Shown: positions 47,748 through 57,140, counted from the first letter of the stretch. The stretch: DNA of 64,000 nt from an uncultured Fibrobacterota bacterium (GCA_963753345.1 CAVWBU010000036.1:5599-69598); one strand, 5' to 3'. Notes: generated from the sequence alone by a model not told the origin. Made by a program: numbers and translations.

Positions 47748-48128
47748 ATGCTCGGCAGAATAGACAAGACAAAAGGTCAGATGGAGGCCGAAATAAGCGA
47801 CGCCGTCACCCGGTTCGAAAAAGAATTCATGGGACGGGGCCCGCTGGAGACGAGGACCTACATCATAGACGACATGGTGATCGTCCGGCTCAAGGGCGTG
47901 CTTACCAGAGCGGAATACCGCCTTGTGAAGTCGGAGCGCAACTCCAAGGCCCGCGACCTTGTCAAGCAGGTGCGCATTGAGCTGCTCGAAAACGGCAGGC
48001 CGCTGCTCGAGGACATCATCAGGGACGTGCTCAAGCGCAAGGTCAAGAGCATGCACACCGATATCAGTACCATGAGCGGGGAGCGGATCATTATCTTCAC
48101 CCTCGACAGGGCCGCTCTGGAAGACTGA
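47748..48128 (+). CDS. DUF2294 / MpsC-family protein
   Basis: TKGQMEAEIS...EKEFMGRGP...DMVIVRLKGVLT.AE...HTDIST.SGE.IIIF. Confidence 0.88.
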   Translation: MLGRIDKTKGQMEAEISDAVTRFEKEFMGRGPLETRTYIIDDMVIVRLKGVLTRAEYRLVKSERNSKARDLVKQVRIELLENGRPLLEDIIRDVLKRKVKSMHTDISTMSGERIIIFTLDRAALED

Positions 48129-48174
48129 TTCCGCATATCGCAGAGTTTTCTTTGTCGCGCCCGGCAACCGTGAG

Positions 48175-48190
48175 TGTGACATTTTTCACC
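48175..48190. promoter_or_regulatory. CRP/FNR- or Rex-like palindrome
   Basis: TGTGA-catttt-TCACC (9/10 match to TGTGA-N6-TCACA). Confidence 0.35.
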
Positions 48191-48235
48191 GGCGTGCAAT
48201 TGCGTCTAAGTTTTTTCTTGCCGTTTTCCCGGGGC

Positions 48236-48244
48236 TGTTATAAT
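48236..48244 (+). promoter_or_regulatory. Extended -10 promoter for the pckG leader
   Basis: TGtTATAAT. Confidence 0.65.
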
Positions 48245-48250
48245 TTTTTA

Positions 48251-48430
48251 GTGCCGTACGGAAGCCGCGTGCAGGCGACCTGCTTGGTCGCGGGCGCTTG
48301 CGGATGCCGGAACGGACGCGGCCGGTTTGCAACCGGCCCGGTATCAAGCCCGGTTGACTCTTGCTCAAGGGGCAGTCCGGGGGTGAGGGCCAAGGAAATG
48401 CCGAAGGGTATTTCTCTGGTCTTTTTTTTT
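48251..48430 (+). ncRNA. Putative cis-regulatory leader RNA (riboswitch/attenuator) upstream of PEPCK
   Basis: Stems 48275-48291, 48296-48349 and 48349-48381, then a terminator. cttggtc (48283-48289) is complementary to terminator 5' arm ggccaag (48388-48394). Confidence 0.65.
48386..48430 (+). terminator. Intrinsic terminator within the 5' leader of pckG
   Basis: agggccaaggaaatgcc-gaag-ggtatttctctggtc followed by T9, about 100 nt upstream of the start codon. Confidence 0.8.
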
Positions 48431-48533
48431 ACCAGGATATCCGGGATTAAAACCGATTATCAGGATAACAGGGCAACAGACGGCATCACCGCAGGAATTG
48501 CGGTGGCTTCCTGACAAGAAAGAAAGGAATACC

Positions 48534-50342
48534 ATGGATGTGAAGGCGACCGCTTCCAACAAGAAACTCGAGCAGTGGGTAAAAGACATTGCCGGCATGT
48601 GTCAACCTGACGGCGTTCACTGGTGCGACGGCTCGCAGGAGGAATACGACGGCCTGTGCGCCCGGATGGTTTCGTCGGGCATGGCCACGCAGCTCAATCC
48701 GGCAAAGAAGCCGGGGTGTTTTCTGTTCCGCAGCCACCCGTCCGACGTGGCGCGCGTCGAAGACCGTACCTACGTGGCGCCGCATTCAAAGGATGATGCC
48801 GGTCCCACAAACAACTGGATGGATCCCGACGCGCTCAAGAAGAAAATGACCGGTTTGTACACAGGCTGCATGAAGGGCCGCACCATGTATGTCATTCCTT
48901 TTTCCATGGGGCCAATCGGCTCGCCGATATCGAAAATCGGCGTGGAAATCACGGATTCGCCCTACGTTGTGGTGAACATGAGGATTATGACCCGCATGGG
49001 AAAAAGAGTGCTTGACGCGCTCGGCGCGGACGGAGAGTTCGTTCCATGCCTTCATTCGGTGGGAGCGCCGCTTGCCAAAGGACAAAAGGATTCCGCATGG
49101 CCCTGCGCGCCCGATATCGCCAACAAATACATAAGCCATTTTCCCGAGGAGCGGACCATCTGGTCGTACGGGTCGGGCTACGGCGGCAACGCGCTTCTGG
49201 GCAAGAAATGTTTCGCGCTGCGCATTGCGTCGGTGCAGGCGCGCGATGAAGGGTGGCTGGCCGAGCACATGCTTATTCTGGGCATAACCAATCCTCAGGG
49301 AAAAAAGAAGTACTTTGCGGCAGCTTTTCCAAGCGCCTGCGGCAAGACCAACCTTGCCATGATGATTCCCACGATTCCCGGCTGGAAAGTGGAAACCGTC
49401 GGCGACGACATCGCCTGGATGAAGTTCGGCCCGGACGGAAGGCTGCACGCCATCAACCCTGAATCGGGTTTTTTCGGCGTGGTGCCGGGAACCTCCATGG
49501 ATTCGAACGCCAATGCCATGCTTTCCATTGAGAAGAACACGATTTATACCAATGTAGTGCTCACTCAGGACAAAGATGTCTGGTGGGAAGGAATAGGGTT
49601 CGATCCTCCTGCGGGAAAAAACATCGACTGGACCGGACAGGAATGGGACATGACCATGCGCCGGACAGGCGCGCATCCGAATGCGCGGTTCACGGCCCCG
49701 GCCGCGCAATGCCCGGTCATTGATCCGGCATGGGAGGATCCGCAGGGAGTTCCGATAAGCGCGATCCTTGTCGGCGGCCGCAGGCCGACAACAATACCGC
49801 TTGTGCATCAGGCTTTTTCGTGGAACCACGGCGTTTTTCTCGGATCGATTGTCGGCTCTGAAACCACCACGGCAAACATCGGTGCGGTCGGCGTGGTCCG
49901 GCGCGACCCGTTTGCCATGCTTCCGTTCTGCGGATACCACATGGGCGACTATCTGGCGCATTGGATTGAAATCGGCAAGAAGACCGCGGCCGACAAACTG
50001 CCCAAGATTTTTTATGTGAACTGGTTCAGAAAAAGCGACGACGGCAAGTGGCTGTGGCCCGGCTACGGCGAAAACAGCCGGGTGCTCAAATGGATATTCG
50101 AGCGCACCGACGGCGCGACCAATGCCGTTGAATCTCCAATCGGCTACCTGCCCGCTCAAGGCGCCATAGACACCAGCGGTCTGCCGGTTGCGGCCTCGGA
50201 CATGAAGGAGCTGTTCAGGGTGGACGCAGCGGAGTGGAAGAAGGAACTGGAGGGGATCAAGGACCATTACAGGAAATTCGGATCAAGGCTGCCTGCGGCT
50301 CTTTCCGGCGAGCTTGCGGCTCTTGAGAAGCGGCTGGGATGA
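48534..50342 (+). CDS. pckG: Phosphoenolpyruvate carboxykinase (GTP)
   Basis: [64 protein letters not shown]. Confidence 0.98.
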
Positions 50343-50470
50343 CGGGCTACGATTGTTCACCAGGCTAGGGGTTTATTATATATTAATGAACCAGGCCACA
50401 ATCGCCCTTCCGGCTTGGCCAAAACCATAAAGAAACATCGCACTGCGACCACAACAGAAGGACATGAGCC

Positions 50471-51307
50471 GTGCCTTGGTTTATCAAGTCTAAGACTGCG
50501 GAAAAGCAGACCAAACCGGTCAAGGACGACATCTGGGTCAAGTGCGATTCCTGCAGCGCTCATGTTTTTAAGGAAGACTGGTACAATTCCCTCAATGTCT
50601 GTCCCAAATGCGGATTTCACGGCAAGCTCACGGCGTATGAGCGCATCGGGCAGATCCTCGACATTGAGACGTTCAAAGAAATGTTCGCCTCAATAACTCC
50701 GTCCGACCCACTCTCCTTTGTGTATGCCAAGGGCAGTTACAAAGACAAGGTGAAAGAAACCCGCGATAAAACCGGGCTCAATGAATCGGTCGTGTGCGGC
50801 ACGGGAGAAATCCATGAAATTCCCGTTTCGATAGCCGTAATGGATTTCCGGTTTTTCGGCGGCAGTCTGGGCAGCGGTACCGGAGAAAAGATCCTGCTTG
50901 CCTCAAACTACGCATACGAGCACAAAATCCCGTACATCATTTTTTCCGCCTCAGGCGGCGCGCGCATGCACGAAGGGATCCTTTCGCTCATGCAGATGGC
51001 CAAAACATGCGCCGGCATTGCACGGCTTCGCGAAAAGAAAATCCCCTACATTTCGGTCCTTACGGATCCGACGACGGGTGGCGTCGTTGCTAGTTATGCC
51101 ATGGTAGGCGACATCAACATCGCGGAACCAGGTGCGCTGGTCGGCTTTGCCGGCAGGCGCGTGATAGAGCAAACCATAAAGCAGAAACTGCCCGAAAATT
51201 TTCAGACCTCAGAGTACTTTCTTGAGCATGGCTTCATCGACCTTATCGTTGAGCGCAAGAATCTTAAAGAAACCTTGAAAAACGTTCTCCTCTACTACAC
51301 CCGGTAA
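50471..51307 (+). CDS. accD: Acetyl-CoA carboxylase carboxyltransferase beta
   Basis: WVKCDSC...CPKC zinc finger, GGSLGS, SGGARMHEG, PTTGGV, GFAGRRVI. Confidence 0.96.
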   Translation: MPWFIKSKTAEKQTKPVKDDIWVKCDSCSAHVFKEDWYNSLNVCPKCGFHGKLTAYERIGQILDIETFKEMFASITPSDPLSFVYAKGSYKDKVKETRDKTGLNESVVCGTGEIHEIPVSIAVMDFRFFGGSLGSGTGEKILLASNYAYEHKIPYIIFSASGGARMHEGILSLMQMAKTCAGIARLREKKIPYISVLTDPTTGGVVASYAMVGDINIAEPGALVGFAGRRVIEQTIKQKLPENFQTSEYFLEHGFIDLIVERKNLKETLKNVLLYYTR

Positions 51308-51331
51308 AAGGTCCCAGCGGGGCAAATTCAT

Positions 51332-52282
51332 ATGAGCGATTATCTTGAATTTGAAAAGTCGATTGCCGAGATGGAGAAAATGATCGAGAAGCTCAAATCG
51401 ATCTCTCCCGACGAGAATCATTACAGCGACGAAATCGCCGAGCTTGAGAAAAAATGCCTCCACCAGAAGCAGGAGCTATACTCCAGCCTCACACCCTGGC
51501 AGACGGTCCAGATCGCAAGGCATCCAAAGCGTCCCGTGCTGCAGGATTACATTTCGCTTATTTTTTCAGATTTCATCGAGCTTCACGGGGACCGCTGTTT
51601 CGGCGACGACCAGGCGCTCATCGGCGGGTTCGCCACCATCGGCAAGCGCCGGGTGATGCTTGTCGGCCACAACAAGGGCAAGAACGTCGACGAAAACGTA
51701 TTGCGCAATTTCGGCCAAGCAAAGCCCGAGGGATATCGCAAGGCGCTCCGTCTCATGAGGCTTGCCGAGAAGTTCAATCTGCCCATACTTTGCTTTATCG
51801 ACACGCAGGGCGCGTATCCAGGCGTCGACGCCGAAGAGCGCGGTCAGCCCGAAGCCATTGCCACCAACCTCACCGAAATGGCGCGTCTCGAAGTGCCCAT
51901 AATAGCCGTGGTCACCGGCGAAGGCGGCAGCGGCGGCGCGCTTGCCATCGGCGTGGGTGATTCGGTGCTCATGCTGTCGCATGCGGTGTATTCGGTGATT
52001 TCTCCCGAAGGGTGCGCATCCATTTTATGGCGCGATGCGTCATTTTCGCCCCAGGCCGCCGAGGCGATGAAGCCCACGGCCCAGTCGCTTCTGTCGCTGG
52101 GCGTGATAGACGAGATAATTCCTGAGCCCCTTGGAGGCGCCCACCGTAACCACGAACAGACCGGCCAGGAAATCAAGCGCGTGCTTCTCAAGCACCTCAA
52201 GAAACTGTGCGCCCAGTCTGCGTCGAGACTGGTGAGACACAGGTTCGAGAAATATTCAGCGATGGGATTGTTTGCAGATTAG
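51332..52282 (+). CDS. accA: Acetyl-CoA carboxylase carboxyltransferase alpha
   Basis: ARHPKRP, ELHGDR, PEGYRKALRLM, GEGGSGGALA, YSVISPEGCASILW. Confidence 0.97.
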   Translation: MSDYLEFEKSIAEMEKMIEKLKSISPDENHYSDEIAELEKKCLHQKQELYSSLTPWQTVQIARHPKRPVLQDYISLIFSDFIELHGDRCFGDDQALIGGFATIGKRRVMLVGHNKGKNVDENVLRNFGQAKPEGYRKALRLMRLAEKFNLPILCFIDTQGAYPGVDAEERGQPEAIATNLTEMARLEVPIIAVVTGEGGSGGALAIGVGDSVLMLSHAVYSVISPEGCASILWRDASFSPQAAEAMKPTAQSLLSLGVIDEIIPEPLGGAHRNHEQTGQEIKRVLLKHLKKLCAQSASRLVRHRFEKYSAMGLFAD

Positions 52283-52311
52283 GTGCGCGTTTTTATGATC
52301 TGACCGCAAAA

Positions 52312-52339
52312 TCACCACAGAGACACAGAGGCCACAGAG
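52312..52339. repeat. Dispersed short repeat (counterpart of 4279-4306)
   Basis: tcaccacagagacacagaggccacagag. Confidence 0.6.
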
Positions 52340-52481
52340 AAAACGAGAGCGAGAATCAAGAATGAAATTCACCAGGTGCACCGTTTTTTCAAGGCTTTCA
52401 ACTTCCAACTCTCAACTTTGAACTCTTCTTCTCTCCACGGGGTGAAAGTATTTTAGTTTTTCAAACCAACAGGATACAACC

Positions 52482-54473
52482 ATGGCCGCCATAAAAAAAC
52501 TGACCATAGAAAACAAACTCCACAAGATCCCGCTGCGCATCACCGACACCACGCTGCGCGACGCGCACCAGTCGCTGTGGGCCACCCGCATGCGCACCGC
52601 GGATATCGAAAAAATCATCGACGTCATCGACAACGTCGGCTATTATTCGCTGGAATGCTGGGGCGGCGCGACGTTCGACGTGTGCCTCCGTTTTCTCCGC
52701 GAGAACCCGTGGGAGCGTCTGAGGCTCATCAAGTCGAAGGCGAAGAAGACGCCGCTGCAGATGCTTCTGCGGGGGCAGAACCTTGTGGGATACCGCAACT
52801 ACGCCGACGACGTCGTCGACCGGTTCGTGGCCCTTGCCTGCGAAAACGGCATGGATATCTTCCGCGTGTTCGACGCGCTTAACGACACGCGCAACATCGA
52901 AGCAGCAGTGAGGGCGGTCAAGAAACACGGCGGTCACGCGCAGGGGACGCTGTGCTACACCATAAGCCCGGTGCACACCATCAAGAAATTCGTGTCGTAC
53001 GCGCGCGAGCAGAAACAGCTCGGCGTGGATTCGATTTGCATCAAGGACATGGCGGGAATTCTTTCGCCCATCATGGCCGAGCGGCTCGTGAGCGCGCTTA
53101 TCAAGGAGCTTGAAATACCCATCCAGCTCCATTGCCATGCCAGTTCCGGCATGGCGATCTCCAGCTACGTTGAAGGCGTCCGCGCCGGCGCGGGCGCGAT
53201 CGACTGCGCCATTGCCGCAATGGCCGGAACCAGCAGCCAACCGCCTGTTGAGACCATGGCCGCCATTTTTTCGGAGACCGACTATCACGCCGATCTCAAC
53301 CGTGATGCCATGCTCCGCGTGCACCGGTACTTTGCCGACCTGTACGCTCAGCGCAACACCGACACGTCGCTCGTGTTCTGCATCGACCCCCAGATCCTCA
53401 TCCACCAGATCCCGGGCGGCATGATCTCGAACTTCCGCTCCCAGCTCGCGAAGCAGAATGCGCTTGACAAACTGGAGGACGCGCTCACGGAAGTCACGCG
53501 CGTGCGCGAGGACCTCGGATGGCCGCCGCTCGTGACGCCCACGAGCCAGATCGTGGGGACACAGGCGGTGATGAACGTGCTTTCCGGCGAGCGATACAAG
53601 ATCGTCCCCAACGAGGTGAAGGACTATTTCCGCGGCCTGTACGGCCGCGCGCCGGCAAACGTGAACCCGGAACTGGCAAAGAAGATCCTCGGCGACGAGA
53701 AGCCCATCACCGTGCGGCCCGGCGACACCATCGCTCCCATGCTGCCCAAGGCGACCGAGGGAATAGATCCCAAGTACATCAAGAACGAGGAAGACATTAT
53801 TTCGTACTGCATTCTTCCCGAGCCGAGCCTTGAGTATTTCAAGTGGCGCGACATGCCGCCGGACAAGCGTCCCGAAACGCCGGCGGACCTGGAGCTTAAG
53901 AAACTGAGCGCTGCCGCAGAAAAGAAAACCGCGGTGACAACGGAGAAGAAAGAGGAGGCTCCTTTCCTCGACCAGATACTGCACCCCGAAGATTACCGCG
54001 GACTCGGCGAACTCCTCAACAGGGCCGGAGGGCTTCGGCTTGACGAATTGACAGTTAAGAAAGGCGATTTTTCCCTGTCGCTCAGATCGGACACCACGAG
54101 AATGCCTGTAATTCCCAAACCGGTTCCAACTGCCGCTCCCGGGGAGGCTTCTACAAAAAAAGAGGGCAAACCGGCAGAAGCCGGACCCGCGGCCGCAAAG
54201 GAAGAAAAGAGCGCGCCGATCCCAACGGTTGGACCGTCGATCAAGGCGCCTCTGGTCGGCGCGTTCTATTCCACGTCCGGACCGGGCAAGCCGAAGCTTG
54301 TGAACGTGGGAGACGTGGTGGAGGCCGGGACCAAGGTGTGCATCGTGGAGGCCATGAAGCTGTTCAACGAGATAGTTGCCCCTGTCAGGTGCAAGATCCT
54401 TCAGTTCCTCGTGGAGGACGGGACCACGGTGGAAAAGAACCAGCCGCTGATTGCCATAGAAGAATTAAAGTAA
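52482..54473 (+). CDS. Pyruvate/oxaloacetate carboxyltransferase (PycB/OadA/transcarboxylase 5S-like) fused to AccB-type biotin carboxyl carrier
   Basis: LRDAHQSL, ECWGGATFD, QMLLRGQN, IKDMAG, HCH, PGGMISN, PPLVTPTSQIVG; C-terminal APLVGAFYSTSGPGKPKLV...EAMKLFNEI. Confidence 0.9.
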   Translation: MAAIKKLTIENKLHKIPLRITDTTLRDAHQSLWATRMRTADIEKIIDVIDNVGYYSLECWGGATFDVCLRFLRENPWERLRLIKSKAKKTPLQMLLRGQNLVGYRNYADDVVDRFVALACENGMDIFRVFDALNDTRNIEAAVRAVKKHGGHAQGTLCYTISPVHTIKKFVSYAREQKQLGVDSICIKDMAGILSPIMAERLVSALIKELEIPIQLHCHASSGMAISSYVEGVRAGAGAIDCAIAAMAGTSSQPPVETMAAIFSETDYHADLNRDAMLRVHRYFADLYAQRNTDTSLVFCIDPQILIHQIPGGMISNFRSQLAKQNALDKLEDALTEVTRVREDLGWPPLVTPTSQIVGTQAVMNVLSGERYKIVPNEVKDYFRGLYGRAPANVNPELAKKILGDEKPITVRPGDTIAPMLPKATEGIDPKYIKNEEDIISYCILPEPSLEYFKWRDMPPDKRPETPADLELKKLSAAAEKKTAVTTEKKEEAPFLDQILHPEDYRGLGELLNRAGGLRLDELTVKKGDFSLSLRSDTTRMPVIPKPVPTAAPGEASTKKEGKPAEAGPAAAKEEKSAPIPTVGPSIKAPLVGAFYSTSGPGKPKLVNVGDVVEAGTKVCIVEAMKLFNEIVAPVRCKILQFLVEDGTTVEKNQPLIAIEELK

Positions 54474-54496
54474 GACTACGAAAAAGATGGGCGTTC

Positions 54497-54544
54497 CCCC
54501 GGCTGTGCAGAGGCGTAGCGCGCTACGCCTCTGCACAGCCGGGG
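54497..54544. repeat. Perfect 48-bp palindrome within a REP-like composite (to ~54660)
   Basis: ccccggctgtgcagaggcgtagcg|cgctacgcctctgcacagccgggg. Confidence 0.85.
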
Positions 54545-54730
54545 TCGGTCTCCCTACGGGCTCGGCTATTCGCCTCGTTGCCGGACCGCCCCTAGTCGCC
54601 TTCGGCGAGGGGTCGGCCGGCAATGCGCTCTGGCGCACCCTCCGGTCCCCCTAACGCGGCGGCAACGGAATTCATTTCAGTCAATTACTTCTTCTTGCGC
54701 CAATTGGTATCCACCTAGTCAACGTTATTT

Positions 54731-54764
54731 CTTCTCAACTCCTCAACTTCTCAACCTCTCAACT
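54731..54764. repeat. 8-mer tandem repeat (inverted copy of 6190-6214)
   Basis: cttctcaactcctcaacttctcaacctctcaact. Confidence 0.7.
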
Positions 54765-55168
54765 AATCTTCTTGGTGCCCCCGCGACCAAGGTTTCTTTC
54801 TTGCAAATTTACTCTCTAGGGGGCTACCCAAGAGAGGAAAGCGCCCGCCCAACAGGAAGGGCGGAAAGCGCTGCCGAGGACCGCGAAGAGGGCCGAGGCC
54901 GGGGGAGACGACCCTTGGAAGTATGCCCCTTCGGGCATCCCTGAAGAGGGACCCGACGGGGTATACCTCTCCCCCGACAAATCTTTTGATGTAATAGCAA
55001 CCCTGCCTGCCGGAATTGTTGATTTTTCGCCCCCGACAGAGTAATTTTTAAGCGTTTTAGGGGGGTAATCAAATCCTCGATTTGTGGGACGGCGCAACCA
55101 GACGTAAATGATTGCGGCGGTATGTGTTGACTACTGCGACATCACATGAGTCGGAAGCCTGGAAAACC

Positions 55169-57140
55169 ATGATATCGTCATCAATAAAAACTCGGGTGGG
55201 GCTGCGCCGGGGTGTCGGCAAGAATGCAGAGCCTTCAGTCACCCAACGAACTTGTACCGCTCTGGCTTTTTTCCTTCTCGCTGCGGCGCTGTTTGCCGGC
55301 AGCAGTGCGCAATCTCCCGACGAGCCCATCATAACTCCTTTTGGCCAGACGGGGCTCAAGTACACCGAAAGCGCGAAAACGCTCGGCGCCGGGAGGCTGG
55401 TTTTTTCGGCGTTCGGCGATATGAGCCTTGACGCTTCGGAAATAGATTATGTCAATATCAACAACCTCAGCGTCGACCGAGGACTAACGCCCAAAAGCAA
55501 CCAGTACTCCCTTATGCCCGCGTTGGGGTTGGGCATTACCCGCATCCTGGATTTTTCCGCCGCCCTTCCATTGAACATCGACTGGACGTCACGGTACGCG
55601 GATACAATTTTCGGTCATGTGGAAGGTTACGGAGGTCTGCAGGGCGGCATCGGCGATCTGGAAATGAAGCTCAAACTGCAGGTGCCTCCGCGCAACGGCC
55701 CGCGTGTTGTCGATATGGCGCTGCTGGCGGGAATGAGCGTGCCCACGGGCAGCAAGACACAGGGATTTTTTCCCCGCCACACTTACTACCTTCTTAAGGA
55801 TTCCTTGTTGACGAACACGCCCAGCGGCGACACCGCGCAGGCCATTTCGGAATATTATTCGTCGGGCGCCGTGGAAACCGAAGGGAAAATCATCCTTACC
55901 TTCAACTGCTGGGAACACGGCGCCGTGATTCCGCTCCAATTGCATCTCAATCTCGGGACCCGGCTCATTTTGGCGCGCGGATTCGATGAAGTCATCCTTT
56001 TTGATGCCGCAGCCGAATACAGGCCCGCGCCGTGGTTTTCACTGTATGCGGAATTGAGCGCGGAACCGAGGCTGGGCAGCATCACAAACGGATTCAAAAT
56101 CGGCGAACGACCCGCTCAGGATTTCTCCGGGTTTCACCATGCACCTCCCGGAAGGCATGTTTATCTCGTTGGGCGGCGACTGGGGACTTTCCTCGCACGA
56201 TCCCATCACCTACGAAAAGGACGGCTCCTTCACCGAGGCGCGGCTGCAGCCCGATTGGATGGTGAGCGTGGCGGTGGGATGGACCGGGTTCCTTTACAAG
56301 GTTGAACCCGGGAAGAAAGTGGTAAAGAGCGGCGACAGCGACAACGACGGAATCCCGGATTCAATTGACAAATGCCCCATGGTTCCCGAGGACTGGGACG
56401 GGTTTGAAGACCAGGACGGGTGTCCGGATTACGACAACGACAAGGACGGCATCGCCGACTCCGTCGACGAGTGCCCCGACGATCCCGAGGATTACGACGG
56501 GTTCAAGGACAAGGACGGATGTCCGGACCCGGACAACGATAGGGACGGCATCTGCGATCCTTGGGTCGCCGACCAGCACCGCGAGGACCAGTATGCAAAG
56601 ATCTGCACGGGCGTTGACAAATGCCCCAACCTGCCTGAGGATTTCGACGGGTTTGAAGACCAGGACGGTTGCCCGGACTACGACAACGACCTTGACGGCG
56701 TTCCCGACAGCCTCGACAGGTGCCCCAACGAACCCGGCCCTGCCGACAACCAGGGATGCCCCAAGCCAGTGGAGGCTCCGAAGGTAAAAGAGATCAAACA
56801 CGGCAGGCTTATTCTCAAAGGCGTCGAATTCAAGGGAACCTCCGCCGATCTTACGGCAGAGTCCTTTCAGAAACTCGACGACGTTTTCGAATCGCTCAAA
56901 GCGTATCCGGGAACAAAGATTGAGATTTGCGGTTACACCGACAACACCGGCAACCCGGCCGCCAACAAAAAGATTTCGCTGCGCCGCGCCGAAACCGTCC
57001 GGGCCTACCTTATTCTGCGCGGGATAGATTCCTCCCGCATCACCGCCGTAGGCAAGGGCCCGGAGGATCCGATCACCAACAATACGACCCCCGAGGGCCG
57101 CGCGTTCAACCGTCGTATCGAAATGAAGCGCATCGACTGA
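55169..57140 (+). CDS. OmpA-family protein: beta-barrel + TSP3 Ca-binding repeats + OmpA-C; apparent +1 frameshift near 56105
   Basis: ORFs 55112-56305 and 56139-57140 join as ...GFKIG[N]DPLRISPGFTMHL..., matching the paralog's DPLSLTPGIRI. DxDxDG repeats; GYTDN...NRRIE. Start uncertain. Confidence 0.82.

What the first reader, a model, noticed from the sequence alone, without database searches (positions are those of the whole stretch)
50471..54473. accD-accA plus a carboxyltransferase-BCCP fusion without accC: possible ATP-independent oxaloacetate:acetyl-CoA transcarboxylase
Seen: ORF 52482-54473 joins a full pyruvate/oxaloacetate carboxyltransferase to what looks like an entire AccB from ~53980. 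That part has an AccB-like N-segment (LGELL..LDELTVKKGDFSLSL), a Pro/Ala linker and a biotinyl domain with FYSTSGPGKPKLV. No biotin carboxylase or oadB/oadG gene is in the window. Established: this 'thumb' loop (E. coli FYRTPSPDAKAF) typifies ACC BCCPs rather than pyruvate carboxylase, OadA or transcarboxylase 1.3S carriers. Propionibacterium transcarboxylase moves carboxyl groups between keto acids and acyl-CoAs without ATP. Inference: PEP+CO2+GDP->OAA+GTP (PckG), OAA->pyruvate+carboxybiotin, then AccAD makes malonyl-CoA, bypassing ATP-dependent AccC. Alternative: one carrier shared by ACC and pyruvate carboxylase, with accC encoded elsewhere.
Basis: partly seen in the sequence, partly recalled or inferred. 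Interest (0 to 1): 0.85.

Follow-up and report, generated by a model that had tools for sequence, protein, structure and literature searches.

The report
Likely ATP-free malonyl-CoA transcarboxylase operon
This bacterium has no ATP-driven biotin carboxylase and carries its only biotin carrier fused to an oxaloacetate-handling enzyme beside accD-accA, so it probably makes the fatty-acid precursor malonyl-CoA from oxaloacetate without spending ATP, as a fused enzyme of Entamoeba and Giardia is reported to do.

Summary
pckG, accD and accA are followed by a 663-aa protein that joins an OadA/PycB/5S-type carboxyltransferase to a whole AccB, with N-segment, linker, thumb and biotinyl lysine.

The genome (94% complete) has no biotin carboxylase, no OadB, no other AccB and no other carboxyltransferase. 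It does have FabD and BirA. None of the 8 genomes of its family has a biotin carboxylase. In all 41 genomes of the order searched, AccB exists only as this fusion, and accD-accA lies directly upstream in 19 of 20 loci checked. Where AccC is present in the order, it forms one clade, which suggests vertical descent with repeated loss.

Best reading (about 0.65): an ATP-independent oxaloacetate:acetyl-CoA transcarboxylase fed by the adjacent GTP-PEPCK. The main rival is an undetected carboxylase.

The reaction is not new. A single-chain protist enzyme (ACCT/PycB) is reported to catalyse it, and this scan has already flagged the same operon on other DNA (PVC, Kiritimatiellota, Bacteroidales; six notes). 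I found no paper on the bacterial split form.

New here: the order-wide picture in Fibrobacterota, the pckG linkage, and Firmicutes relatives in which the same fusion sits directly before accC. No biochemistry or expression data exist.

The parts
48498..50342 (+). pckG, GTP-dependent PEP carboxykinase; proposed oxaloacetate supplier. The true start may lie a few codons downstream of the TTG.
   Evidence: NF003253 971.8 bits, cut-off 504. PEPCK_N and PEPCK_GTP domains. The same position upstream of accD is seen in 12 of 20 relatives that have PckG.
50471..51307 (+). accD, carboxyltransferase beta subunit with N-terminal Zn ribbon
   Evidence: TIGR00515 372.8 bits, cut-off 317.45. PF17848 25.8 bits, cut-off 24.5.
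51332..52282 (+). accA, carboxyltransferase alpha subunit
   Evidence: NF004344 477 bits, cut-off 357. TIGR00513 444.9 bits.
52283..52481 (.). 199-base spacer between accA and the fusion gene, holding a TCAACT-like tandem tract
   Evidence: Read directly. A promoter-like site at 52271-52299 is no more than chance gives (3 found against 2.6 expected).
52482..54473 (+). Fusion gene, 663 aa: oxaloacetate/pyruvate carboxyltransferase joined to a complete AccB-type biotin carrier
   Evidence: Full-length homologues in 41 of 41 genomes of the order.
52536..53945 (+). Carboxyltransferase part (residues 19-488): TIM barrel plus PYC_OADA domain, with residues R26, D27, Q30, K188, H217, H219
   Evidence: Best solved relatives: OadA 2NX9 481 bits, PycB 5KS8 440 bits, transcarboxylase 5S 1RQB 410 bits. 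These residues are invariant or nearly so. Their roles are recalled from the 5S and PC structures.
54003..54083 (+). AccB-like N-terminal segment (residues 508-534, LGELL...KKGDFSLSL)
   Evidence: Aligns to E. coli AccB from residue 26 and to TIGR00531 from model position 6. Conserved across the order.
54084..54236 (+). Pro/Ala/Lys-rich flexible linker (residues 535-585)
   Evidence: Sequence. pLDDT below 50 over 536-582 in the model.
54237..54464 (+). Biotinyl domain (residues 586-661) with thumb 595-607 (DNA 54264-54302) and biotinyl lysine K626 (DNA 54357-54359)
   Evidence: PF00364 55.9 bits. Alignment to E. coli BCCP structures 1BDO/3BDO/1A6X has no gap. 29-residue spacing against 22 in carriers without a thumb.
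54496..54544 (.). 49-base GC-rich perfect inverted repeat just after the stop codon; possible terminator or interspersed repeat
   Evidence: Seen by eye. Not listed by the terminator scan.

Best explanation
AccD-AccA and the 663-aa fusion together form a biotin-dependent transcarboxylase that needs no ATP.

1. The carboxyltransferase domain of the fusion takes the carboxyl group of oxaloacetate onto the biotin of its own AccB-type carrier and releases pyruvate. This is the shared half-reaction of OadA, PycB and 5S.
2. The carrier swings on its Pro/Ala linker to AccD-AccA, which passes the carboxyl to acetyl-CoA and gives malonyl-CoA for type II fatty-acid synthesis.
3. Oxaloacetate comes from PEP + CO2 through the GTP-PEPCK encoded directly upstream. 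The net reaction is PEP + CO2 + GDP + acetyl-CoA -> pyruvate + GTP + malonyl-CoA, so the ATP normally spent by AccC is saved.

Shown here: the gene set, the domain anatomy, the intact catalytic and biotinylation residues, the genome-wide and family-wide lack of any biotin carboxylase, and the conserved operon.
Inferred: that the three proteins assemble, the direction of flux, and that this is the only route to malonyl-CoA.
For: (1) Inventory of this genome (4.5 Mb, 94.3% complete).
- No Biotin_carb_C domain.
- The accC model hits only CarB and PurD.
- No OAD_beta.
- The only AccB match is the fusion.
- The only Carboxyl_trans match is accD/accA.
- Other Biotin_lipoyl hits are an E2, GcvH and a FabH fusion without the MK biotin motif.
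- FabD (329.9 bits, above cut-off) and BirA are present.

(2) Relatives.
- A biotin carboxylase domain occurs in 14 of 41 genomes of the order sample and in 0 of 8 of this family. In the phylum sample it occurs in 20 of 72 genomes of this order.
- The fusion occurs in 41 of 41.
- In 41 of 41 the best AccB match is the tail of the fusion (open frames of 645-709 aa in 38). No stand-alone AccB was found, even where accC exists.
- FabD occurs in 41 of 41.
- accD-accA lies directly upstream of the fusion in 19 of 20 loci.

(3) All seven catalytic and biotinyl residues are kept in 31 of 32 fusions from genomes without accC. The exception is a second copy. The only two defective copies (K188N; an internal stop) are among 18 from genomes with accC.

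(4) In other families of the phylum with a stand-alone accB, a biotin carboxylase is present in 23 of 23. Loss of accC is therefore seen only where AccB is fused to the oxaloacetate carboxyltransferase.

(5) The 16 AccC sequences of the order form one clade (94/91), apart from 7 from other families and 7 from Firmicutes. This fits vertical descent with repeated loss (midpoint root only).

(6) pckG is adjacent in 12 of 20 relatives that have it, and 11 of those 12 lack accC.

(7) The same operon occurs in Kiritimatiellae, Victivallales and PVC MAGs. 6 of the 8 genomes with the operon (L048-L055) have no biotin carboxylase.

(8) Precedent. [quoted passage not shown]
Against: - No enzyme assay, no expression data and no closed genome. 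All genomes are MAGs.
- The AccB N-segment and thumb are retained in lineages without accC. In E. coli these are AccC-contact elements (recalled, not tested). Their retention would be easier to explain if a carboxylase partner still existed.
- 11 of the 27 accC-less genomes in the 41-genome sample have no detected GTP-PEPCK, ATP-PEPCK or PEP carboxylase. Their oxaloacetate source is unsettled, though all 11 have a malic enzyme match. The PckG coupling is therefore not general.
- The flux is near equilibrium (recalled thermodynamics) and has to be pulled by fatty-acid synthesis.
- The counts across relatives are not independent events.
- An earlier scan note on the same operon carries the flag 'part of it fell'. 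I could not see which part.
Confidence: 0.65

Rival explanations
1. Shared-carrier carboxylase with a hidden biotin carboxylase. The fusion is the common carrier of acetyl-CoA carboxylase and a two-subunit pyruvate carboxylase, as in its accC-bearing relatives. ATP-dependent carboxylation of biotin is done by a gene missing from the assemblies or by an unrecognised, non-homologous enzyme.
For: - This is the likely state of relatives that have accC. There a bona fide orphan AccC (TIGR00514 710-723 bits, cut-off 626.5) coexists with the fusion as the only AccB.
- In 5 of 5 Firmicutes genomes tested, the fusion is the only full AccB. All five have accC directly downstream, among 11 such loci of the 80.
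- The AccB N-segment and thumb are retained here.
- The genome is 94.3% complete.
Against: - 0 of 8 genomes of the family have a biotin carboxylase domain. It is also lacking in f9 (0 of 8) and most of f5 (7 of 39 have it), many of these 95-100% complete.
- The control search found the domain in 13 of 14 named genomes.
- No conserved unexplained gene accompanies the operon. The neighbours are PckG, an MpsC-family protein, RF3, HDOD, histidine kinases and OmpA-like proteins.
- The only ATP-grasp hits are CarB and PurD.
Confidence: 0.17
2. The complex runs for another purpose. It could move carboxyl groups from malonyl-CoA to pyruvate (anaplerosis), or act as a soluble oxaloacetate decarboxylase, rather than making malonyl-CoA.
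For: - The transcarboxylation is reversible in principle (recalled).
- The carboxyltransferase domain scores highest against OadA of V. cholerae (2NX9, 481 bits).
Against: - No other source of malonyl-CoA was found: there is no other carboxyltransferase or carboxylase. FabD needs malonyl-CoA.
- No OadB is present to discharge carboxybiotin (0 of 8 in the family).
- The true Na+-OAD sets of relatives are separate operons. They use a different OadA-like protein of 25-28% identity, next to OadB.
Confidence: 0.06
3. Relic. The cells take up fatty acids, and the operon is a decaying remnant of an ACC/PYC system after loss of accC.
For: None found, beyond the lack of accC itself.
Against: - Open, full-length genes with 59-86% identity across the order.
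- Catalytic residues kept in 31 of 32 fusions from accC-less genomes.
- Operon order kept in 19 of 20 loci.
- FabD in 41 of 41.
Confidence: 0.03

Closest known systems
Protist single-chain ACCT/PycB 'malonyl-CoA:pyruvate transcarboxylase' (Entamoeba histolytica, Giardia, Mastigamoeba, retortamonads, Monocercomonoides)
   Same: The same three activities without a biotin carboxylase: an ACC-type carboxyltransferase, a PycB-type carboxyltransferase and a biotin carrier. The same proposed reaction, acetyl-CoA + oxaloacetate -> malonyl-CoA + pyruvate. I read passages of PMC8136499, PMC7985675 and PMC12308965.
   Different: - The protist enzyme is one polypeptide in eukaryotes that only elongate fatty acids. 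Here there are three genes (accD, accA, fusion) in bacteria with full type II synthesis.
- Here the carrier is a complete AccB with N-segment and thumb.
- I could not compare sequences. No protist sequence was at hand, and neither 'longer' search listed one among its best 120.
- The primary papers (Jordan 2003; Barbosa-Cabrera 2012) are not held.
Methylmalonyl-CoA:pyruvate transcarboxylase of Propionibacterium (12S, 5S, 1.3S; EC 2.1.3.1)
   Same: ATP-independent carboxyl shuttle between a keto acid and an acyl-CoA on a swinging biotin. The carboxyltransferase here matches 5S at 410 bits (1RQB).
   Different: - The acyl-CoA side is AccA/AccD, not a 12S-type single chain.
- The carrier is AccB-type and fused to the 5S-like part; 1.3S matches at only 29 bits.
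- The NF008984 5S equivalog is not reached (502.5 bits against 827).
- The acceptor is presumed to be acetyl-CoA, for biosynthesis rather than propionate fermentation.
E. coli-type heteromeric acetyl-CoA carboxylase (AccA, AccB, AccC, AccD)
   Same: AccA and AccD are above the equivalog cut-offs. The carrier aligns with E. coli AccB without a gap through the biotinyl domain and thumb.
   Different: No AccC in the genome or the family. AccB is not free but fused behind an oxaloacetate carboxyltransferase.
Two-subunit pyruvate carboxylase PycA/PycB (for example Methylobacillus flagellatus, PDB 5KS8), and the Firmicutes pycB::accB-accC arrangement found here
   Same: - The fusion passes the PycB domain model NF006761 (755 bits) and matches 5KS8_C at 440 bits.
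- 11 of the 80 genome-contig loci, all Firmicutes, carry the same kind of fusion directly before accC.
- In the 5 of these genomes that were tested, it is the only full AccB.
   Different: - No PycA/AccC here.
- The carboxyltransferases of the accD-accA-linked fusions sit on one side of a branch (17 rows, SH-aLRT 82), apart from the accC-linked Firmicutes ones (11 rows, 91).
- The carrier of 5KS8_C matches the carrier here at only 23.7 bits.
Na+-translocating oxaloacetate decarboxylase OadABG
   Same: The carboxyltransferase domain is most like OadA of V. cholerae (2NX9, 481 bits).
   Different: - No OadB.
- The TIGR01108 equivalog is not reached (676 bits against 756.5).
- Relatives that have OadB pair it with a different OadA-like protein.

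Membership tests
Heteromeric acetyl-CoA carboxylase (AccABCD) | AccA and AccD carboxyltransferase subunits | tested here: met
   TIGR00513 444.9 bits (cut-off 319.3). TIGR00515 372.8 bits (cut-off 317.45).
Heteromeric acetyl-CoA carboxylase (AccABCD) | AccB-type carrier with thumb and MK biotinylation site | tested here: met
   TIGR00531 covers model positions 6-155 of 156 at 104-107 bits, just under the 115.2 cut-off. The alignment to E. coli AccB has no gap. The carrier is present only as a fusion.
Heteromeric acetyl-CoA carboxylase (AccABCD) | AccC, the ATP-dependent biotin carboxylase | tested here: not met
   No match to TIGR00514 above cut-off, and no Biotin_carb_C domain in the genome. 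0 of 8 in the family.
Two-subunit pyruvate carboxylase (PycA/PycB) | PycB: carboxyltransferase with a C-terminal biotinyl domain | tested here: met
   NF006761 755 bits, cut-off 402.
Two-subunit pyruvate carboxylase (PycA/PycB) | PycA biotin carboxylase subunit | tested here: not met
Na+-pumping oxaloacetate decarboxylase (OadABG) | OadB membrane decarboxylase subunit | tested here: not met
   PF03977: none in the genome, 0 of 8 in the family, 10 of 41 in the order.
Na+-pumping oxaloacetate decarboxylase (OadABG) | OadA equivalog | tested here: not met
   TIGR01108 676 bits, below the 756.5 cut-off.
Transcarboxylase EC 2.1.3.1 (12S/5S/1.3S) | 5S-type keto-acid carboxyltransferase | tested here: inconclusive
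   410 bits to 1RQB, but NF008984 scores 502.5 bits, below its 827 cut-off. The fold and half-reaction are shared with OadA and PycB.
Transcarboxylase EC 2.1.3.1 (12S/5S/1.3S) | 12S-type acyl-CoA carboxyltransferase and 1.3S carrier | tested here: not met
   The only Carboxyl_trans proteins are AccD/AccA. 1.3S matches at 29 bits against 60.5 for AccB.
Transcarboxylase EC 2.1.3.1 (12S/5S/1.3S) | Two carboxyltransferases and a carrier, with no biotin carboxylase and no pump subunit | tested here: met
Protist ACCT/PycB transcarboxylase | Domain set: ACC carboxyltransferase + PycB carboxyltransferase + carrier, no biotin carboxylase | tested here: met
   The set is present over three adjacent genes. 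The protist architecture is taken from passages of PMC7985675 and PMC12308965.
Protist ACCT/PycB transcarboxylase | Single polypeptide | tested here: not met
   Three ORFs. No single-chain form was listed among the best 120 of either 'longer' search (weak evidence).
Protist ACCT/PycB transcarboxylase | Sequence kinship with the protist enzymes, and malonyl-CoA formation from oxaloacetate | not testable with these tools
   No protist sequence was available, and there is no assay.

The most novel reading that the evidence does not exclude
Whole bacterial lineages have dispensed with the otherwise essential AccC. These are most families of this Fibrobacterota order, plus Kiritimatiellae, Lentisphaerota and PVC relatives that carry the same operon. 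They make all their malonyl-CoA by ATP-free transcarboxylation from oxaloacetate. The step that made accC expendable was the fusion of AccB to an oxaloacetate carboxyltransferase. After that, accC was lost repeatedly. In this family the operon recruited GTP-PEPCK, so CO2 enters fatty-acid synthesis with a net GTP gain instead of an ATP cost. The protist enzyme may descend from such an operon.
Probability: 0.55. Interest if true: 0.8.

Novelty: new variant of a known kind. Interest (0 to 1): 0.7.

Why it matters
Acetyl-CoA carboxylase with its ATP-dependent AccC is treated as the universal, essential entry to bacterial fatty-acid synthesis, and it is an antibiotic target.

If these bacteria make malonyl-CoA by transcarboxylation from oxaloacetate:
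- accC is dispensable in nature;
- fermenters on low energy budgets save one ATP per C2 unit added;
- the 'PEP carboxylation plus transcarboxylase' route drawn in synthetic CO2-fixation designs (the MOG cycle, passage in PMC12710033) has a natural, compact three-gene bacterial version that could be moved into production hosts.

It would also give a bacterial context for the odd fusion enzyme of Entamoeba and Giardia.

Tried and rejected
- Fused forms: 'longer' searches with the fusion and with AccA. The first was crowded out by single-chain pyruvate carboxylases. The second returned AccD-AccA fusions of 554-630 aa and chance fusions. Neither listed a protist-like single chain among its best 120. 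This is weak evidence either way.
- Expression: no RNA holder was listed. The 12 holders are DNA runs labelled peat, freshwater sediment and soil.
- Structure: the AlphaFold2 model from 11 sequences was modest (pLDDT 71, pTM 0.67). The carboxyltransferase part is confident; the AccB part is poor. I ran no fold search on it.
- Complex prediction was not run. A carrier with its enzyme would pass by likeness to solved ACC structures.
- Hidden carboxylase: I looked for one among conserved neighbours of the operon in 29 loci and scanned the recurring clusters. They were an MpsC-family protein, RF3, HDOD and hybrid histidine kinases. None is a candidate.
- Promoter and terminator scan of 48000-55200: promoter-like sites are at chance level (3 against 2.6 expected) and not informative.
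- Literature on a bacterial form: searches (0 papers for six phrase variants) found none. One search was rejected for term syntax and re-sent. Supplementary files were not consulted.
- Fibrobacter-like family f10 as a cultured model: rejected. It has neither AccA/AccD nor this fusion.
- No tree of the short biotinyl domain was built. The HMM and PDB comparisons were taken as enough.

Full report
**What is in the sequence.**
- accD, 50471-51307: TIGR00515 372.8 bits against a cut-off of 317.45, with a Zn ribbon.
- accA, 51332-52282: NF004344 477 bits against 357.
- A 663-aa ORF, 52482-54473.
- A GTP-dependent PEP carboxykinase directly upstream, 48498-50342: NF003253 971.8 bits against 504.

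The 663-aa protein has a TIM-barrel carboxyltransferase (HMGL-like 19-281, PYC_OADA 305-488). After it comes a stretch that the AccB model TIGR00531 matches almost end to end: residues 508-660, model positions 6-155 of 156, 104 bits, just under the 115.2 cut-off.

Against solved structures, this C-terminal 170 aa is most like E. coli AccB (4HR7_B residues 26-176). The alignment has no gap through the biotinyl domain and the thumb. The transcarboxylase 1.3S carrier (29 bits) and the carrier of a two-subunit pyruvate carboxylase (5KS8_C, 23.7 bits) match weakly. In related fused proteins the spacing between the P-x-x-G and MK motifs is 29 residues in 20 cases and 22 in 3 carriers of the other type. 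The thumb is therefore a real 7-residue insert.

The carboxyltransferase part is about equally close to OadA (2NX9, 481 bits), PycB (5KS8, 440) and 5S (1RQB, 410). All three catalyse the same half-reaction, oxaloacetate + biotin = pyruvate + carboxybiotin (established knowledge, recalled).

**Whole-genome inventory.** The window lies in a 4.5-Mb, 55-contig assembly rated 94.3% complete.
- The accC model finds only weak hits. These are the two halves of CarB and PurD next to purE.
- The Biotin_carb_C domain is not found, though the same search found it in 13 of 14 named control genomes.
- OAD_beta is not found.
- The only AccB match is the fusion.
- The only Carboxyl_trans match is accD/accA.
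- The other Biotin_lipoyl matches are a 2-oxoacid dehydrogenase E2, GcvH, and an odd FabH with an N-terminal biotin/lipoyl-like domain that lacks the MK motif.
- FabD (329.9 bits, above cut-off) and a biotin ligase are present.

The cell therefore has a consumer of malonyl-CoA, a way to biotinylate, one biotin carrier and two carboxyltransferases, but nothing known that could load CO2 on biotin with ATP.

**Relatives.** Earlier notes of this scan place the genome in Fibrobacterota, Chitinivibrionales (not tested by me). This fits the best named hit, a 'Fibrobacteres bacterium' MAG.

- Biotin carboxylase domain: found in 14 of 41 genomes of the order sample and in 0 of 8 of this family (five of the eight are 95-99% complete, this genome 94.3%). 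In a phylum sample, 20 of 72 genomes of the order have it: f1 0 of 8 counting this genome, f9 0 of 8, f5 7 of 39, f2 3 of 4, f3 4 of 4, f4 6 of 7.
- Fusion: matched in 41 of 41 genomes. One is split over two contigs, one is cut by a contig end and one is interrupted by a stop.
- AccB: in 41 of 41, the best AccB match is the tail of the fusion. It lies in open frames of 645-709 aa in 38. No stand-alone AccB with N-terminal coverage exists, even in the genomes that have accC.
- AccC, where present: a bona fide stand-alone AccC (710-723 bits against 626.5) at an unrelated locus.
- Gene order: accD-accA lies directly upstream of the fusion in 19 of 20 loci fetched.
- FabD: matched in 41 of 41.
- No other gene travels consistently with the operon.

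**Residues and history.** R26, D27, Q30, K188, H217, H219 and the biotinyl K626 are all kept in 31 of 32 fusions from genomes without accC. Their roles are recalled from the 5S and pyruvate carboxylase structures. The exception is a second copy in one genome. The two defective copies (K188N on a long branch; an internal stop) are among 18 from genomes with accC. This is a small and non-independent hint that the carboxyltransferase is indispensable only when accC is gone.

The 16 AccC sequences of the order form one clade (94/91), apart from 7 from other families of the phylum and 7 from Firmicutes (30 rows, midpoint root only). This fits an ancestor that had AccC plus the fusion, followed by repeated loss. 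In the other families of the phylum that keep a free accB (157-277 aa) next to accC, the carboxylase is present in 23 of 23.

**Beyond the phylum.** Of the 80 best loci from the species-level genome collection, 8 have accD-accA directly upstream of a fusion with the full AccB module. Their labels are a Fibrobacteres MAG, Kiritimatiellae, Victivallales, PVC, two 'Bacteroidales' MAGs and two unlabelled. 6 of those 8 genomes lack a biotin carboxylase domain; their completeness is not given.

Eleven Firmicutes loci (Desulfosporosinus, Desulfitobacterium, Syntrophomonas, Peptococcaceae, Thermincola and others) have the same kind of fusion immediately followed by accC. In 5 of 5 such genomes tested, it is the only AccB above cut-off, at 138-173 bits.

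In a tree of 89 carboxyltransferase domains, the 17 accD-accA-linked ones lie on one side of a branch (SH-aLRT 82) and the 11 accC-linked ones on another (91). Whether the fusion arose once or twice is open.

**How it most likely works.** The carboxyltransferase of the fusion strips the carboxyl from oxaloacetate onto its own biotin. The carrier swings on the Pro/Ala linker to AccD-AccA, which carboxylates acetyl-CoA.

Oxaloacetate comes from PEP and CO2 through the PEPCK encoded upstream. By the coordinates, pckG sits directly upstream of accD in 12 of the 20 relatives that have it. 11 of those 12 lack accC, while 6 of the 8 with pckG elsewhere have accC.

Net: PEP + CO2 + GDP + acetyl-CoA -> pyruvate + GTP + malonyl-CoA. 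The gene content, anatomy and conservation are shown. Assembly of the complex, direction of flux and exclusivity are inferred.

**Against this reading, and open points.**
- There is no assay, no expression evidence (no RNA holder listed) and no closed genome.
- The AccB N-segment and thumb, which in E. coli contact AccC (recalled), are retained without AccC.
- 11 of the 27 accC-less genomes of the 41-genome sample have no detected GTP-PEPCK, ATP-PEPCK (0 of 41) or PEP carboxylase (4 of 41). All 11 have a malic enzyme match. The oxaloacetate source differs between lineages, and the PckG coupling is a trait of this family rather than of the system.
- OadB occurs in 10 of 41 relatives, always next to a different OadA-like protein, and in 0 of 8 of this family.

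**Comparison with what is known.** The reaction is not new.
[quoted passage not shown] 2003.
- The primary papers are not held, and I saw no supplements.
- Transfer of a carboxyl from oxaloacetate to acetyl-CoA by EC 2.1.3.1 is used in the designed MOG cycle (passage of PMC12710033).

I found no paper on a bacterial accD-accA-pycB::accB system or on bacteria that lack accC.

This scan has flagged the same operon six times on other DNA. One of those notes is marked 'part of it fell', and I could not see which part.

**Verdict.** The system works like a transcarboxylase. It fails the membership tests for ACC, PycAB and OadABG because each lacks its energy-coupling subunit here. It differs from the Propionibacterium enzyme in its acyl-CoA half and its carrier, and from the protist enzyme in being split and in carrying a full AccB.

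I rate it a new variant of a known kind: of real interest to specialists in lipid metabolism and in synthetic CO2 fixation, and directly testable.

Noticed in passing
G000:C49, locus L009:1402-2787 (+): A 3-oxoacyl-ACP synthase III (FabH) carries an N-terminal Biotin_lipoyl-like domain (44.8 bits). Its hairpin reads ESAKAS, which is neither the MK biotin motif nor the usual DKA lipoyl motif. Weak matches in ORFs of 424-540 aa in relatives may be the same fusion. Why the enzyme that starts fatty-acid synthesis would carry a swinging-arm-like domain is unexplained.
   Followed up: partly
Family f10 of the phylum, e.g. G078:C1:1759085-1761759, G041:C1:202467-205119 (loci L174-L176): This large family (55 genomes sampled, mostly 98-100% complete) has no AccB-type carrier at E <= 1e-12 in 51 of 55. 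A biotin carboxylase domain occurs in only 18 of 55, always inside an ORF of about 900-1200 aa. In 5 of 5 genomes checked there is no AccA/AccD, and instead a single 12S-type carboxyltransferase of about 520 aa. In G078 and G041 it lies within about 1 kb of a small weak carrier match. How these genomes make malonyl-CoA is a separate puzzle.
   Followed up: partly
window 52283-52481 and 54474-55100: Both spacers flanking the fusion gene hold TCAACT-like short tandem tracts. The downstream one also begins with a 49-base perfect GC-rich inverted repeat (54496-54544). They resemble the interspersed structured repeats that earlier notes describe for this genome.
   Followed up: no
L046 (G010:C20) and L140 (G008:C3): Two relatives that have accC carry damaged carboxyltransferase parts. 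In G010 the conserved K188 is N, and the domain sits on a very long branch (1.15). In G008 a TAA splits the gene, so the AccB part stands in a 267-aa open frame. Either could be an assembly error.
   Followed up: partly
L058, L061-L069, L071 (Firmicutes contigs): Desulfosporosinus, Desulfitobacterium, Syntrophomonas, Peptococcaceae and Thermincola have pycB::accB immediately followed by accC. In 5 of 5 genomes tested, this fusion is the only AccB above cut-off. That implies one carrier shared by acetyl-CoA carboxylase and pyruvate carboxylase in cultured bacteria.
   Followed up: partly
L057, L059, L060 (Kiritimatiellae, Lentisphaeraceae and Verrucomicrobia MAGs): These are shorter relatives (567-572 aa) with the thumb-bearing biotinyl domain but no AccB N-segment. 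accD-accA is not within the flank fetched, and their genomes have no biotin carboxylase domain.
   Followed up: no
L037, L039, L040, L041, L048: gene directly upstream of accD: A small MpsC-family protein (PF10057, about 123 bits in the two scanned, L040 and L048) precedes accD in five relatives, four of which have accC. Its role is unknown.
   Followed up: partly
G000:C15:91788-94166 and G000:C55:2888-5266: Two contigs give near-identical carB matches (same lengths; 66.6 bits each for the first half, 43.7 and 43.9 for the second). This suggests a duplicated stretch in the assembly.
   Followed up: no
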